64,000 bases of DNA from an uncultured Gammaproteobacteria bacterium (GTDB lineage: Bacteria > Pseudomonadota > Gammaproteobacteria > UBA9214): contig CAVYZN010000028.1 of NCBI GenBank assembly GCA_963773065.1, positions 32,001 to 96,000 of the forward strand, written 5' to 3'. Numbering within the stretch: the first letter of the stretch is position 1; each line of letters starts with the position of its first letter. The notes under the pieces were generated by a model that saw nothing but the letters and a program-made list of their open reading frames with translations, was not told where the DNA came from and ran no database searches. Made by a program: the position numbers and the translations under genes. Positions 6,958 to 13,330 of this stretch are shown here, in pieces.

Positions 6958-9435
<2,478 letters not shown>

Positions 9436-9580
9436 TCAAGGGCGCGGGTGAAGGCGGAAGAATACCGTAGGCGGGACGGCGCCCACAACCGGCAAGGGCC
9501 GAGGCACCCCACCCTTACCTGGCCGCTAGGCATCACCTGCTAAAGCCACCAGTAGCGAGCTCATCGTATGTAACGGGCCA

Positions 9581-9687
9581 AGAGCCGGAGGGGCCGGGCG
9601 AGACGTCGGCCGTAGGGATGCAGGCCGGCGAGCGCTCGCACGGCCTCAACCCTGCGGCCGACGGTCCCGCCCGGCCCCTCCGGCTCT
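9581..9687. repeat. ~107 bp long imperfect palindrome in the leuS/ybeL divergent region
   Basis: AGAGCCGGAGGGGCCGGGCG ... CGCCCGGCCCCTCCGGCTCT outer arms with nested GTCGGCCGTAGGG/CCCTGCGGCCGAC arms. Confidence 0.75.
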
Positions 9688-9784
9688 ACGCCACATGACT
9701 CATGTTTTACTTGACCTGGCAAGCTACACACCGGCGCCGCTTTGGTCCACACTTGTCACTCTGGCAGAACACGAGGCAGGCCCG

Positions 9785-10312
9785 ATGACCGACGAGAAGT
9801 CCACCCGTGAGAAATGGCTGCGGGCCTACGATGACATGATGGTGCGGGTCAAAACGGCGATCGAGGAAGCGGAGGAACACACGTTCCCCGCCATCAAGCG
9901 CCATATCGCCAAGGCCCGCGACACGGCCGTCGAGCTGGAGGAACTGACCAGGGACGAGGCCGAGAAGATTGCCTACTTTCTTGAGCGGGACCTGGAGGAT
10001 GCCGGCAAGCACATGGCCGAGAGCGGCCATGAACTGAGCGACTGGCTGCGTTTCGATATCGGTCTGATCGAGGACCGCCTGCTGGAGGTCCTGTTGAAGG
10101 TCGCCGACCATACCCGCCTCGACATGCTGCAGTTTGAACGCGACCTCAAGGAAGGGCCGCTCTACAACGCCGGCGAGGTCACCGGTCCCGGCACGCTGGT
10201 CTGCAACGCCTGCGGCGAGGTCATCCGCTTCCACTCAACCGGTTATATCCCGGAATGCCCCGCCTGCGGGCACACCGTCTACCATCGCAAGTCCGTCACG
10301 GACGAAATCTGA
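9785..10312 (+). CDS. Zinc-ribbon protein, YbeL/DUF1451-like
   Basis: C-terminal GEVTGPGTLVCNACG...CPACG zinc ribbon; divergent from leuS like ybeL. Confidence 0.8.
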   Translation: MTDEKSTREKWLRAYDDMMVRVKTAIEEAEEHTFPAIKRHIAKARDTAVELEELTRDEAEKIAYFLERDLEDAGKHMAESGHELSDWLRFDIGLIEDRLLEVLLKVADHTRLDMLQFERDLKEGPLYNAGEVTGPGTLVCNACGEVIRFHSTGYIPECPACGHTVYHRKSVTDEI

Positions 10313-10479
10313 ACCGGCGGTGACCGCACCACTGAAGAATGGATGGGGTCACCCCTTAGCCAGCCGGTGTTAACAGCGTAAGTAAAGCTCTGTTGAACAT
10401 GTCAACATCATAAAACAACAATGCCATTGATACGGTCCTTTCGCACCCGCTTTTTCACTGAGCGTGATGTCGCGGCATA

Positions 10480-10744
10480 ACCCTGCGCATCAGTCACCCC
10501 TCTGGATCAAGATCGAATCGATGGTCTGATTCAATCCCTGGTACCGTGGGTACCCCACAAAATACTCGGTACCGTCCAGCGTCCAAAAATGAGCATCACA
10601 GAATGTATGGCTGGCCCGAAGGCCTCCAACCCTTGGGTGGCTCGCTGGACGGGCGAAGGGCGTATTCAATGGCCGGCCGGGACCTCCAATCAGAATCTCA
10701 TGGTTGTACCAACCCCATTGCCTGGCTGATCCCGGCCGCCAATC
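10480..10744 (-). ncRNA. Candidate bridge RNA (seekRNA) of the IS110/IS1111 element; ends approximate
   Basis: Stem-loop at 10671-10740 holds segments matching both halves of the target. Segments at 10494-10537 match both halves of the donor junction. Confidence 0.7.
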
Positions 10745-11752
10745 TTAACCGAACAGACGCGCGGCATCGTAATGGGTCTGATCGCGTAACATGCAGTAAC
10801 TGGCGCGGGCCAATTTGTGCGCCACCGCCCGGATCGCGACGATACCGCTGGTCTGCGCGCGCTTGCGCTCAAAGAAGCGCTTGGCCCGCGCATCAAAGCG
10901 CACGGCGAAGTGGGCCGCTTCGGAGAACGCCCAGGACAGGTACTTGTTGCCGGCCTTGCGGTTGCCTTCGCCCTTCTTCTTGCCGTTGCTGAGGCGCTCG
11001 CTGTTGACGCAGCGGCAGTACGAGGCGTAATTGCCTGGGCTCTTGAAGCGGGTAATCTCGCCCGTCTCAAGCCAAATGGTCATGCCCAGAATCGGCCCCA
11101 CGCCGGTGATGGTCTGCAAAATCTTAAAGGCCGGCGCCACCCGCGCCGCCGCCAACGCGGCCTGTTCCAGCTCGTCAATCTCCCGCTGGAGCGCCCGCTG
11201 CACGCTCAGCAGGCTCTGCGCCGCCAGCTGGTCGTGCCCGGGCGGTAACGGCACGGCAAACTCCGGCTTGCGTATCAGGCTTGCGCTGATCCGCTCTCCG
11301 GTAGAACGCCAGAGCTGGCTCTGAATGCTGATCAGGCGTCCCGCCGCGATCCGCACCAGTTGCATGCGCCGGCGCAGCAGATCGCGCACCGCGCGTTGCT
11401 CCTTGGGATAAATATACCCCGTCGGCAGTATCCCCAGGCGCATCAGGTGCGCCAGCCAGAACGCATCGTGAAGGTCATCGCTGTACTTCAGGCCCTCATA
11501 CTGGCGCACCGCCGCGGTGTTGACCAACCGCAGCGGGTAGCCGGCATCCTGCAATCCATCCACCAGCCAGTACCAATTGAAGGTCGATTCCACGGCAACC
11601 CCCAGCAGCTCCGCCTTGAACGGCTGCAAGGCCTTCAGCGTCACCGCCAGATCATTGGGCAGCCGCCGTTCAAAAACCCGTTTGTCATCCTCATCAATCA
11701 CCACAACGACGTGGTTGTTGGAATGCAGATCAATCCCGCAGTAAAGTGTCAT
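10745..11752 (-). CDS. IS110 family DEDD recombinase/transposase (335 aa)
   Basis: MTLYCGIDLH, VESTFNW, KYSDDLHDA (DEDD RuvC-like), TITGVG, C-terminal RLSNGK serine and GNKYL; GGAGG RBS upstream of 11752. Confidence 0.95.
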   Translation of the reverse strand: MTLYCGIDLHSNNHVVVVIDEDDKRVFERRLPNDLAVTLKALQPFKAELLGVAVESTFNWYWLVDGLQDAGYPLRLVNTAAVRQYEGLKYSDDLHDAFWLAHLMRLGILPTGYIYPKEQRAVRDLLRRRMQLVRIAAGRLISIQSQLWRSTGERISASLIRKPEFAVPLPPGHDQLAAQSLLSVQRALQREIDELEQAALAAARVAPAFKILQTITGVGPILGMTIWLETGEITRFKSPGNYASYCRCVNSERLSNGKKKGEGNRKAGNKYLSWAFSEAAHFAVRFDARAKRFFERKRAQTSGIVAIRAVAHKLARASYCMLRDQTHYDAARLFG

Positions 11753-11834
11753 AACAGCCTCCTGGGTTGTGTTGAGTGACCAACACCAGTGTATACACCG
11801 GTGCCAACCACTCAGGAGGCTGGCTAGAGGATTA

Positions 11835-11887
11835 TCAGACTCGATTGATCGGATGCACGAAAAACCGTGGTCTGTCCCGATTTTCCC
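11835..11887. repeat. REP-like repeat (right half of the split copy plus a CGTGGTCTGTCCC copy)
   Basis: TCAGACTCGATTGATCGGATG identical to 14215-14235; CGTGGTCTGTCCC is shared with 14315-14327 and 15131-15143. Confidence 0.85.
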
Positions 11888-11922
11888 GAAGGGGACGCCA
11901 CAAATCGCCAAGGAGATGAGAG

Positions 11923-13330
11923 ATGACAGAACGATCCAAAACACTCGCGAAGCTGCCCGAAGGGTTCATCGGGGCGCTCCGCGCCGGGCTCCGGGGCCAG
12001 GTCCTGACCCAGGAAGATGCCGGATACGACGAGGCTCGCGCCGTGTACAACGCGATGATCCAGCGCAGGCCGGGTGCGATCGCGCGGGTCGCGGACGTGG
12101 CGGACGTCATCGCGTGCGTCAACGCCGCGCGCGAGGCGGGCGTGCTGGTCGCGGTGCGCGGGGGTGGCCACAACGCGGGCGGTCTCGGTGTCGTCGACGG
12201 CGGTCTCGTCGTCGACCTCTGCGGTCTACGCGGCATTCGCGTTGACCCGCGGGCCCGCACCGTCCGCGTGGAAGGCGGCGCCACGTGGGGCGAACGTCGA
12301 CCACGCCACACATCCCTTCGGCCTGGCCACACCGTGCGGCTTCATCTCGACCACCGGCGTGGGCGGGCTGACACTCGGTGGCGGCACCGGCAATCTCACG
12401 CGAAGTTGCGGGCTGACGATCGACAATCTGATTTCCGCCGACGTGGTGCTTGCGGATGGGCGCATGGTTACGACAAGCGCCGACGAGCACCCCGACCTTT
12501 TTTGGGCGCTTCGCGGTGGCGGGGGCAACTTCGGCATCGTCACATCGTTCCTGTTCCGCGCCCATCCCGTGAGCATGGTCATCGGCGGCCCCACGTTCTG
12601 GGCGCTCGAGCAGGCCGAGGACGCCCTGCGCGGGTTTCAGAATCTGATCGAAAACGCACCGGAGGAGCTCGGCGGGTTCTTCGCGTTCCTCACCGTGCCG
12701 CCCGTACCGCCGTTCCCGGAGGACCTCCACGGCCGCAAGGTCGCTGGCGTCGTGTGGTGTTTCAACGGGCGCCAGGAGGCCTTCGACCGAACCGTCAACC
12801 CGCTCATCTCGGCCGTGCCGCCGTTACTCCACGCGCCTCACGAGCTCCCTTACCCGGCGCTCCAGTCGTTCTTCGACCCGCTCTATCCGGCTGGGCTCCA
12901 GTGGTACTGGCGCGCGGACTTCATGGGCAGGCTCTCGGACGACGCCATCCGCGAGCACGTGCGGCACGGGGCCACGCTGCCGACGGGGCACTCGACGGTA
13001 CACCTCTACCCATTGAATGGCGCGGCCGCGCGCGTGGGCGCGGGCGACACGGCGTACCGCCACCGCGACGCGTTCTGGTCGCAGGTCATCGTGGGCGTCG
13101 ACCCCGACCCAGGCAACGCCGACACCCTTCGCGACTGGACGGTCGGCTACTACGAGGCGCTCCACCCGTTCTCGACGGGCGCGGCCTACGTGAATTTCAT
13201 GATGGACGAGGGCGCGGATCGCATCCGCGCGACCTATGGGGCGAACTACGATCGCCTCGCGAAGATCAAGCGGCAGTATGACCCCGACAACTTCTTCCGC
13301 GTGAACCAGAACGTGCCGCCGGCCGCGTAG
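11923..13330 (+). CDS. FAD-binding oxidoreductase, berberine-bridge/VAO family (frameshift near 12290)
   Basis: RGGGHN covalent-FAD His motif, GVGGLTLGGG, ALRGGGGNFGIVT and the BBE tail YGANYDRLAKIKRQYDPDN. Confidence 0.9.

What the first reader, a model, noticed from the sequence alone, without database searches (positions are those of the whole stretch)
10480..10744. Candidate bridge RNA downstream of the IS110 recombinase, with readable target and donor guides
Seen: in transposase sense (minus strand) 10740->10671 forms a stem GGCGGCCGGGAUC...GGUCCCGGCCGGCC with an inner hairpin UGGU-ACA-ACCA. The hairpin is flanked by AUGGGGU (10718-10712), which equals the left half of the insertion target ATGGGGTCA, and by GAG-AU-UCUGA (10699-10690), whose UCUGA is the reverse complement of the right half TCAGA. 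About 150 nt further, GGAUU-GA-AUCA (10537-10527) matches the left donor GGATTATCA, and AGGGGUGA (10501-10494) is an exact 8-nt reverse complement of the right donor TCACCCCT. Both loops have the same left-then-right order, and one guide in each extends its match across a 2-nt insertion. Established: IS110-family elements use a bispecific bridge RNA (IS621 type; seekRNA in IS1111 elements, encoded downstream of the recombinase). Inference: this is a new programmable RNA-guided recombinase/bridge RNA pair whose native target is a REP-like repeat, possibly with bulged guides.
Basis: partly seen in the sequence, partly recalled or inferred. Interest (0 to 1): 0.92.

Follow-up and report, generated by a model that had tools for sequence, protein, structure and literature searches.

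The report
IS1111-type insertion sequence guide RNA

Summary
Window 10350-11837 (minus strand) is one intact IS1111-group insertion sequence. It sits in a REP-like repeat of the host genome. Its 393-nt non-coding region after the transposase gene encodes a seekRNA/bridge RNA.

Supported:
- The first stem-loop (10671-10740) is a target-binding loop. About 130 relatives (50-71% protein identity) keep its scaffold, its outer stem covaries, and its two guide segments track each element's own flanks (0 of 2000 permutations each; wrong-sense controls null).
This 8-mer changes together with the right end of the element at several positions in relatives.

Not supported:
- The left-donor guide GGAUU-GA-AUCA (10527-10537) is the 5' strand of a covarying structural hairpin. 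Apart from the window's own element, none of the 32 relatives with the same left end has it. A better candidate is GAGUAUUUUG (10558-10567).
- The 2-nt "bulge" in the target guide cannot be told apart from a single mismatch.

Extra observations: the donor-matching nucleotides lie in a multiloop; both 3' guides read two bases across the integrated junctions; and there is a second, weaker target-like loop. The RNA was not shown to be made. Verdict: new member of a known kind.

The parts
10350..11837 (-). Whole IS1111-group insertion sequence. The core dinucleotide TG (CA on the + strand) is present at both junctions (10350-10351 and 11836-11837). Length is 1486 bp counting one core copy.
   Evidence: Flanks rejoin to the intact REP-like repeat found elsewhere in the genome. 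End motifs are conserved in relatives. Single copy in the host genome.
10745..11752 (-). Transposase gene: 335 aa plus stop, intact.
   Evidence: Pfam PF01548 (6.8e-18) and PF02371 (5.5e-16). NCBIfam NF033542 'IS110 family RNA-guided transposase', 184.1 bits against a cut-off of 140. D8, E55, D93, D96 and S255 are conserved in at least 97% of 73 aligned proteins.
10671..10740 (-). Target-binding loop (the short seekRNA equivalent): outer stem 10728-10737 with 10675-10684, CC/GG clamp, inner hairpin 10701-10711.
   Evidence: Folds as described. On 56 sequences 87.9% of cells pair against 62.6% in shuffles; 232 against 71.5 double-sided changes; 0 of 500 shuffles reach this; slid controls pair 28-43%.
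10712..10720 (-). 5' target guide CAAUGGGGU, the reverse complement of the flank right of the core. It matches 7 nt at the occupied site and 9 nt at 8 of 12 REP copies.
   Evidence: Family test: cognate 5.95 against non-cognate 4.24, 0 of 2000 permutations, n=43.
10689..10700 (-). 3' target guide UGAGAUUCUG (core UG at 10691-10692), then AU (10690-10689), which equals the first two bases of the left end.
   Evidence: Family test: 4.02 against 2.78, 0 of 2000, n=45. The 2-nt tail agrees with left-end bases 1-2 in 94 of 101 loci, in three states AT/AA/AG. In this copy the match to the flank is weak: 4 contiguous, 6 with one mismatch, 7 with a 2-nt bulge.
10480..10661 (-). Multiloop domain closed by a long-range helix (10653-10661 pairs with 10480-10488).
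   Evidence: RNAalifold consensus of 32 sequences; the outer pairs of this helix show 5-6 pair types each.
10572..10652 (-). Arm with a second, target-loop-like internal loop (stem 10643-10652 with 10572-10581; 5' segment 10629-10637, 3' segment about 10594-10607). Function unknown.
   Evidence: The stem covaries. It is the second-best hit of the target-loop model in a 3-kb stretch: 18.9 bits, E 0.0023. Its segments track the target halves weakly: 36 of 3000 and 9 of 3000 permutations.
10558..10567 (-). Candidate left-end (donor) guide GAGUAUUUUG in a single-stranded joint. 7 of 10 bases are complementary to core G plus left-end bases 1-9.
   Evidence: Best site in an unbiased scan of the family alignment: mean 6.88 of 10 against background 2.44, sd 0.76. 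Covariation: 6.52 against 6.04, 0 of 5000, 56 distinct pairs. It was only marginal with 18 pairs: 287 of 5000.
10510..10537 (-). Structural hairpin (10530-10537 pairs with 10510-10517).
   Evidence: Covarying pairs, for example GC 22, CG 4, AU 3 at one pair. Folds as a 9-bp hairpin in the single sequence. Absent from the 32 other elements with the same left end.
10493..10501 (-). Right-end (donor) guide AGGGGUGAC. It has the same sense as the right end AGGGG, plus core TG, plus the first two bases (AC) of the right flank.
   Evidence: Best same-sense match to the right end in the family: mean 8.32 of 10 against 2.55, sd 0.90. Matched variants occur at positions 1, 3, 4 and 7 of the 8-mer.
10540..10554 (-). 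Small conserved hairpin GGUACC-CAC-GGUACC between the two donor-matching joints.
   Evidence: Covarying pairs.
10368..10373 (-). -35-like TTAACA (TTGACA in relatives). It lies 17 nt before the hexamer GATAAT that forms only when the right and left ends are joined in a circle.
   Evidence: Read. No sigma-70-like promoter was found in the integrated element (0 found). The junction promoter itself is inferred.
10357..10365 (-). Right subterminal inverted repeat GGCUGGCUA. Its partner is at 11818-11826. The terminal extensions are 5 nt (right) and 9 nt (left).
   Evidence: Read; conserved in relatives.
11838..11850 (+). Left half (in transposase sense) of the interrupted REP-like repeat, GACTCGATTGATC on the + strand. 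The other half is ATGGGGT at 10343-10349.

Best explanation
This is the 3' non-coding RNA of an intact IS1111-group insertion sequence. It is a seekRNA/bridge RNA that tells the DEDD recombinase where to insert. All sequences below are in transposase sense (window minus strand).

Target. The target is the REP-like repeat ...CGAGTC-TG-ACCCCAT..., where TG is the core.

Target-binding loop. It starts 4 nt after the stop codon.
- Its 5' segment CAAUGGGGU pairs with the top strand right of the core.
- Its 3' segment GAGAUUCUG has the sense of the top strand left of the core, so it pairs with the bottom strand.

Donor recognition. This is not a second simple loop. Two single-stranded joints of a multiloop carry the donor-matching bases.
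- GAGUAUUUUG is partly complementary to the left end.
- AGGGGUGAC has the sense of the right end.

Junction reading. Both 3' segments run two bases past the core into the sequence that lies there after integration. The target guide reads into the left end, and the donor guide reads into the right flank. This resembles the handshake guides of IS621, or equivalently a reading of the integrated junctions for excision.

Shown here: the element's anatomy, the conserved structure, and the covariation of guides with flanks and ends.

Inferred: that the RNA is made (probably from a promoter formed at the circle junction), that it is processed, that it binds the recombinase, and that it guides recombination.
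For: - Recombinase family.
- Element ends and REP target.
- Scaffold: conserved directly after the stop codon in 67 of 78 parsed elements.
- Outer stem covariation: 0 of 500 shuffles reach the observed value.
- Target guides against flanks: 0 of 2000 permutations each, with null wrong-sense controls at 580 and 1857 of 2000.
- An independent relative (L046, 67% identity) has exactly the same 14-nt left flank as the window (ATCAATCGAGTCTG) and carries a contiguous matching guide GCGAGUCUGA; its right flank is not in the contig.
- Consensus structure with a multiloop.
- Right-end guide: of 110 parsed loci, 66 match their right junction 8 of 8 and 21 match 7 of 8. Matched variants are TGGCTG, TGAGTG, TGTGTG, A/G/T at position 1, and A/T/G/C at position 7. 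The window and L145 both have G at position 1 in guide and in end.
- Left-end guide: top site of an unbiased scan, and 0 of 5000 permutations.
- Guide tail against left end: 94 of 101 concordant.
- Literature: the seekRNA of IS1111 elements lies downstream of the gene with the top-strand match 5' of the bottom-strand match (PMC11187229, abstract and sections 6, 8, 9, 10, 13, 14 read). [quoted passage not shown] Handshake guides (PMC11208158, passages read).
Against: - No direct evidence of the RNA. The only RNA-library signal is one 174-nt contig of a soil metatranscriptome that covers 10497-10669 with no base substitutions and one inserted base. It may be DNA carry-over and it does not cover the target loop.
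- There is a single copy in the host genome and no relative above 71% protein identity. This element's own site preference therefore rests on one insertion.
- Its 3' target guide fits the occupied site poorly: 4 contiguous bases, where 7 is typical of the family.
- The left-end guide is only 7 of 10 complementary, and its covariation signal is small (6.52 against 6.04).
- The permutation tests do not correct for shared ancestry of the elements.
- In ISEc11 the short 82-nt seekRNA alone sufficed for transposition (PMC11187229, section 10), so the donor-matching segments may not be required.
- Rfam 15 has no matching family.
Confidence: 0.8

Rival explanations
1. It proposes an IS621-like RNA with two simple loops. 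The donor loop is formed by GGAUU-GA-AUCA (left donor) and AGGGGUGA (right donor), and guides in both loops bulge out 2 nt.
For: The strings are present, and GGAUU..AUCA does resemble the left end GGATTATCA. Discontiguous pairing of a donor guide is known for IS621 (PMC11208160, passage read). Three elements with an 11-nt 3' guide (the window, L048, L153) reach 7 matches only with a 1-2-nt bulge.
Against: - The segment is the 5' strand of a hairpin whose pairs covary across 32 sequences. It also pairs in the single-sequence fold.
- Apart from the window's own element, 0 of the 32 relatives with the identical left end carry it at that place.
- It is not among the six best left-end-complementary sites of the family scan.
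- The bulged reading of the target guide is no rarer by chance than a one-mismatch reading: 1.2% against 1.9% of shuffles.
- For L048 and L153, 23 and 21 of 76 non-cognate flanks score as well.
Confidence: 0.05
2. Only the target-binding loop (a short seekRNA of about 70-80 nt) is a guide. The recombinase protein recognises the ends through the subterminal inverted repeats. The downstream structured region is a precursor or stabilising part, and its likeness to the ends has another cause, for example promoter or processing constraints.
For: In ISEc11 the 82-nt seekRNA alone supported transposition, even better than the long form. The role of the long RNA and the way the ends are recognised are stated to be unknown (PMC11187229, sections 10 and 14). 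The ends are strongly conserved in this family, which also fits the junction promoter TTGACA-17-GATAAT.
Against: The 8-mer at 10494-10501 changes together with the right junction at positions 1, 3, 4 and 7 in separate lineages. The joint at 10558-10567 covaries with the left end. Neither is expected of a mere precursor.
Confidence: 0.13
3. The region is only a structured 3' untranslated region or terminator of the transposase mRNA, and its likeness to flanks and ends is chance.
For: The z-scores of single-sequence folds are modest, at -2.2 to -2.35. No RNA has been demonstrated.
Against: No terminator-like site was found. The guide segments follow each element's own flanks, with null wrong-sense controls. 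Structure and scaffold are conserved at 50-71% protein identity.
Confidence: 0.02

Closest known systems
seekRNAs of IS1111-family elements (ISEc11, ISPa11, ISKpn4, ISPst6; Siddiquee et al. 2024, PMC11187229)
   Same: - Long non-coding region downstream of a roughly 335-340-aa DEDD transposase.
- Subterminal inverted repeats.
- A guide stem-loop next to the stop codon.
- The segment complementary to the top strand lies 5' of the one complementary to the bottom strand.
- The promoter is expected only at the circle junction.
- ISPa11 also targets a REP.
- ISEc11 also inserts next to TG (table seen in PMC13604230).
   Different: No sequence comparison with those named elements was possible here, because there was no ISfinder access. 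Here the region beyond the short seekRNA shows donor-matching segments that covary with the ends, and a second target-like loop. The paper leaves the role of the long RNA open. Its supplementary figures of the long forms could not be seen.
IS621 bridge RNA (IS110 group; Durrant et al. 2024 PMC11208160; Hiraizumi et al. 2024 PMC11208158)
   Same: - One RNA matches both target and donor.
- Each is read on both strands around a core dinucleotide.
- Two bases next to the core match the partner DNA after exchange (handshake guides).
- Both target a REP.
   Different: - The RNA lies downstream of the gene, not upstream.
- The order of the two guides is reversed.
- The donor-matching bases lie in a multiloop, not in a simple internal loop.
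- The core is TG, not CT.
- The subterminal repeats are long.
ISPpu9 / ISPpu10 of Pseudomonas putida (Pares-Guillen et al. 2025, PMC12288879)
   Same: IS110-family elements inserted at a fixed dinucleotide inside REP sequences. Circle intermediates form, and ISPpu10 has a junction promoter.
   Different: In those elements the bridge RNA is described as part of the transcript upstream of the transposase mRNA (passages read). ISPpu9 carries extra small RNAs (Asr9, Ssr9) that were not seen here.

Membership tests
IS110 family, IS1111 group | DEDD (RuvC-like) N-terminal domain plus the PF02371 C-terminal domain with a conserved Ser | tested here: met
   PF01548 and PF02371. NF033542 at 184.1 bits against a cut-off of 140. 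D8, E55, D93, D96 and S255 conserved in at least 97% of 73 proteins.
IS110 family, IS1111 group | Subterminal inverted repeats of 7-17 bp with short terminal extensions | tested here: met
   The 9-bp repeat TAGCCAGCC / GGCTGGCTA lies 9 and 5 nt from the core. The same arrangement is seen in relatives.
IS110 family, IS1111 group | The longer non-coding region lies downstream of the transposase gene | tested here: met
   393 nt downstream (10352-10744) against 83 nt upstream (11753-11835).
IS110 family, IS1111 group | Site-specific insertion without target duplication beyond the core | tested here: met
   The flanks rejoin to an intact repeat present 3 times exactly elsewhere in the genome. Only TG(A) is shared by both junctions.
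seekRNA / bridge RNA | Two segments in one loop that match opposite strands of the target on either side of the core and change with the target | tested here: met
   0 of 2000 permutations for each segment, with null controls.
seekRNA / bridge RNA | Segments that match the donor ends and change with them | tested here: met
   Right end: (matched variants at 4 positions). Left end: (weaker; 7 of 10 in this element).
seekRNA / bridge RNA | The RNA is made, bound by the recombinase and needed for transposition | not testable with these tools
   The only signal is one RNA-library contig over 10497-10669, which does not show transcription.
IS621-type bridge RNA (IS110 group) | RNA upstream of the gene, with two simple internal loops and the left guide 5' of the right guide | tested here: not met
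   The RNA lies downstream, the guide order is reversed, and the donor bases lie in a multiloop. It works like this family but is not a member of the subgroup.
Rfam families | Match to a curated covariance model | tested here: not met
   Only two chance-level hits, far below the gathering scores.

The most novel reading that the evidence does not exclude
In this family the guide RNA has three parts: the target loop, a second degenerate target-like loop, and a donor multiloop. Both 3' guides read straight across the integrated junctions (left flank-TG-left end, and right end-TG-right flank). The same RNA would then hold the two junctions together for excision as well as guide insertion, with the second loop gripping the other target half. 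That would explain two observations in ISEc11: the donor must sit in its correct target in order to move, and a long seekRNA of 145-170 nt exists.
Probability: 0.2. Interest if true: 0.6.

Novelty: new member of a known kind. Interest (0 to 1): 0.3.

Why it matters
The finding adds one uncharacterised IS1111-group lineage. About 130 relatives were collected here, with readable guides and many different natural targets. Such a set is useful raw material for anyone surveying programmable recombinases.

It does not change the picture. RNA-guided targeting by IS1111 elements, REP targeting and multiloop donor binding have been in print since 2024.

Three comparative observations concern a question the seekRNA paper leaves open, namely how IS1111 ends are recognised and how excision is guided:
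- two-base junction-reading tails on both 3' guides;
- covariation of the donor segments with the ends;
- a second target-like loop.

They are leads, not results.

Tried and rejected
- Rfam scan of 9500-12500 at E up to 1 gave only two chance hits.
- A generic inverted-repeat search for the ends was too noisy. It was replaced by motif-anchored parsing.
- Looked for further copies in the host genome to obtain more insertion sites: only the window copy exists.
- Looked for further copies of relative L048 in its genome: only one copy exists.
- Looked for closer relatives in metagenome contigs: none is above 70% identity.
- An 'ideal' ungapped target predicted from the two target guides is absent from the host genome: 0 sites at up to 2 mismatches, and 3 sites at 3 mismatches, two of them ordinary REP copies. 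The poor fit of the 3' guide is therefore not explained by a better site elsewhere.
- Bulge against mismatch in the 3' target guide could not be decided.
- I tried to read the second target-like loop as a donor loop, against the left end, the right end, both strands and the circle junction. No consistent match was found by eye, and its function stays open.
- Read laying on three DNA runs and one RNA run showed relatives at about 90-99% identity in sediment, wetland and soil metagenomes, with small changes inside the 5' target guide (10713, 10717, 10720). The contigs stop at or before the ends of the element, so no new guide-flank pairs were gained. Parts without cover are not interpreted.
- No promoter or terminator was found in the integrated element.
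- Supplementary files of the papers were closed. Supplementary Table 5 and Extended Data Fig. 10 of PMC11208160, and Supplementary Figs 6-7 of PMC11187229, may already show this family, the multiloop or the second loop.
- No literature search was made for a second target-like loop or for handshake-like tails in IS1111 elements. I make no claim that these are not in print.

Full report
**What is there**

On the minus strand, 10745-11752 encodes an intact 335-aa protein. It carries the two domains of IS110-family recombinases (PF01548 and PF02371). It scores 184.1 bits against NCBIfam NF033542 'IS110 family RNA-guided transposase', whose cut-off is 140. D8, E55, D93, D96 and S255 are conserved in at least 97% of 73 aligned relatives.

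In transposase sense the junctions read GAGTC-TG-ATAATCCTC-TAGCCAGCC... on the left and ...GGCTGGCTA-AGGGG-TG-ACCCCAT on the right. The 9-bp subterminal inverted repeats, the short upstream region (83 nt) and the long downstream region (393 nt) place the element in the IS1111 group. It is a single copy in the 3.84-Mb host assembly.

**The target**

Joining the flanks gives ATGGGGTCAGACTC on the + strand. That string occurs 3 times exactly in the host genome. At up to 2 mismatches it occurs 42 times, against 10 for the reversed control, and often as inverted pairs about 65 bp apart. Of the 12 copies with at most one mismatch, 10 continue with GATTG and 8 are preceded by CA.

**Relatives**

- The transposase found 446 relatives among 599 candidates in the genome collection and 534 of 597 in the metagenome collection. 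The best 80 of each were kept, at 50-71% identity.
- Nearly all share the ends (C)TG-ATAATC(C/A)TC-TAG... and ...CTA-ATGGG-TG.
- The base after TG varies on the right flank, and the base before TG varies on the left. I therefore take TG as the core. In the window a third base (A) happens to be shared by both junctions.

**The first stem-loop**

- In relatives the same architecture follows the stop codon: a stem, AGCCAG, a variable stretch, a UGG...CCA hairpin, a second variable stretch ending in CUGA, UUGGA, and the stem again. A pattern found it in 67 of 78 parsed elements.
- On a 56-sequence alignment the stem pairs in 87.9% of cells against 62.6% in shuffles. There are 232 double-sided changes against 71.5. 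None of 500 shuffles reaches this, and slid controls pair 28-43%.
- The 5' variable stretch is the reverse complement of each element's own right flank: cognate longest match 5.95, non-cognate 4.24, 0 of 2000 permutations, n=43.
- The 3' stretch has the sense of its own left flank: 4.02 against 2.78 with the core removed, 0 of 2000, n=45.
- The wrong-sense controls are null, at 580 and 1857 of 2000.
- Elements with quite different targets make the point by eye, for example L056, L075, L095 and L111.
- L046, at 67% protein identity, has exactly the same 14-nt left flank as the window (ATCAATCGAGTCTG). It carries the contiguous guide GCGAGUCUGA. Its right flank is not in the contig.

These tests do not correct for shared ancestry.

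The order of the two matches (top-strand match 5' of bottom-strand match) is the one reported for IS1111 seekRNAs (PMC11187229, abstract and section 9).

**This element's own guides**

- CAAUGGGGU (10712-10720) matches 7 nt of the occupied site and 9 nt of 8 of the 12 REP copies.
The family typically shows 7 contiguous.
- Shuffled flanks reach the bulged score in 1.2% of trials and the one-mismatch score in 1.9%.
- A metagenome relative with the identical guide (L121) sits at GAATCTG. That fits the one-mismatch reading as well as the window's own site does, and it scores lower than the window under the bulged reading (5 against 7).
- The bulge is therefore neither shown nor excluded. A perfectly matching target does not exist in the host genome.

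**The rest of the RNA**

An RNAalifold consensus of 32 sequences gives:
- a long-range helix (window 10653-10661 with 10480-10488) that closes a multiloop;
- an arm (10572-10652) with an internal loop;
- a small hairpin (10540-10554);
- a second hairpin (10530-10537 with 10510-10517).

All of these have covarying pairs.

The segment GGAUU-GA-AUCA is the 5' strand of that second hairpin. Of the 33 elements that share the window's left end exactly, only the window has that string there. It is a chance likeness.

This one is real.
- The 8-mer after GAUCC(A/U)GA is the best same-sense match to the right end anywhere in the aligned RNA: mean 8.32 of 10 against background 2.55, sd 0.90.
- Of 110 loci with a parsed right junction, 66 match it 8 of 8 and 21 match 7 of 8. 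I take the other 23 as parse errors.
- Matched variants in separate lineages are TGGCTGAC (5), TGAGTGAC (2), TGTGTGGC (1), AGGGTGAC (1), TGGGTGTC (7), TGGGTGGC (3) and TGGGTGCG (1).
- The window and the distant L145 both carry G at position 1 in the RNA and in the end.

**A better left-end candidate**

An unbiased scan puts the best complement of the left end at GAGUAUUUUG (10558-10567). This is a single-stranded joint just 5' of a UGG hairpin, the same position the 5' guides hold in the other loops.
- Its mean score is 6.88 of 10 against 2.44, sd 0.76.
- Covariation with the left end was marginal with 18 distinct pairs (287 of 5000).
- It was clear with 56 distinct pairs: 6.52 against 6.04, 0 of 5000.
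- In the window it is 7 of 10 complementary.

Donor-matching bases in a multiloop are what Durrant et al. describe for many IS1111 orthologues (PMC11208160, passage read).

**Junction-reading tails**

- Positions 7-8 of the right-end guide follow the first two bases of the right flank, not of the left end.
- The two bases after the core in the 3' target guide follow the first two bases of the left end: 94 of 101 concordant, in the states AT, AA and AG.
- Each 3' guide is thus colinear with an integrated junction.
- This is the logic of the IS621 handshake guides (PMC11208158, passages read). It would equally suit recognition of the junctions for excision, which Siddiquee et al. infer from the need for the correct donor flanks (PMC11187229, section 14).

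**A second target-like loop**

- The arm 10572-10652 resembles the target loop. It is the second-best hit of the target-loop model in a 3-kb stretch, at 18.9 bits and E 0.0023. The top hit, at 73.4 bits, is the training sequence itself.
- Its two segments track the target halves weakly: 36 of 3000 and 9 of 3000 permutations.
- The first loop plus this arm span about 170 nt, which is the size of the 'long seekRNA' (145-170 nt). That link rests on length alone.
- I could not assign this loop a function.

**Expression**

- No promoter or terminator was found inside the integrated element.
- TTAACA (10368-10373; TTGACA in relatives) lies 17 nt before the GATAAT that forms when the ends are joined. 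This matches the junction promoter known for this group. It is an inference.
- One contig of a soil RNA library covers 10497-10669 with no base substitutions and one inserted base. That is not proof of transcription.

**Verdict**

This is a real guide RNA of a known kind in a new lineage. The novelty was overstated.

Noticed in passing
window 10572-10652 (-); same position in relatives L032-L191: There is a second internal loop built like the target-binding loop (GAGCCA..GGGU-UGG hairpin CCA-..CUGUGA..UUGGAC). Its two segments weakly follow the target halves. Its function is unknown.
   Followed up: partly
L109:3015-3110 compared with L088 and L110: In this relative the 5' half of the target loop appears joined to the 3' half of the second loop, and the non-coding region is about 90 nt shorter. 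This looks like a deletion between the two look-alike loops. It was read by eye from the outputs.
   Followed up: no
relatives L033, L034, L037, L039, L049, L067, L078, L081, L187, L191 and others: The right junction carries CG where the left junction and the RNA guide carry TG. The first core base can therefore differ between the two junctions of one element.
   Followed up: no
host genome, e.g. G000:C8:32001-32079, C18:4922-4997, C26:92626-92823: A REP-like repeat TCAATGGGGTCAGACTCGATTGATC occurs as inverted pairs about 65-200 bp apart. It is the target family of the element.
   Followed up: partly
window 11923-13330 (+): Two long overlapping ORFs in different frames (11923-13281 and 12074-13330) together read like one FAD-linked oxidase. 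This suggests a frameshift or an assembly error near 12280-12300, just beside the element.
   Followed up: no
window 8398-9423 (-): This ORF starts like a leucyl-tRNA synthetase (name recalled from the look of the sequence, not tested). It ends in an Arg/Gly-rich stretch that looks out of frame, so another frameshift or assembly error is possible.
   Followed up: no
window 10713, 10717, 10720 in contigs of runs X1-X3: Relatives at about 90-99% identity in sediment and wetland metagenomes differ from the window by single-base insertions or deletions inside the 5' target guide. This would be small natural retargeting. Their flanks were not recovered.
   Followed up: partly
L051 and L094: These copies lack the target loop directly after the transposase gene. 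The gene runs on or the region is replaced, so they are probably decayed elements.
   Followed up: no
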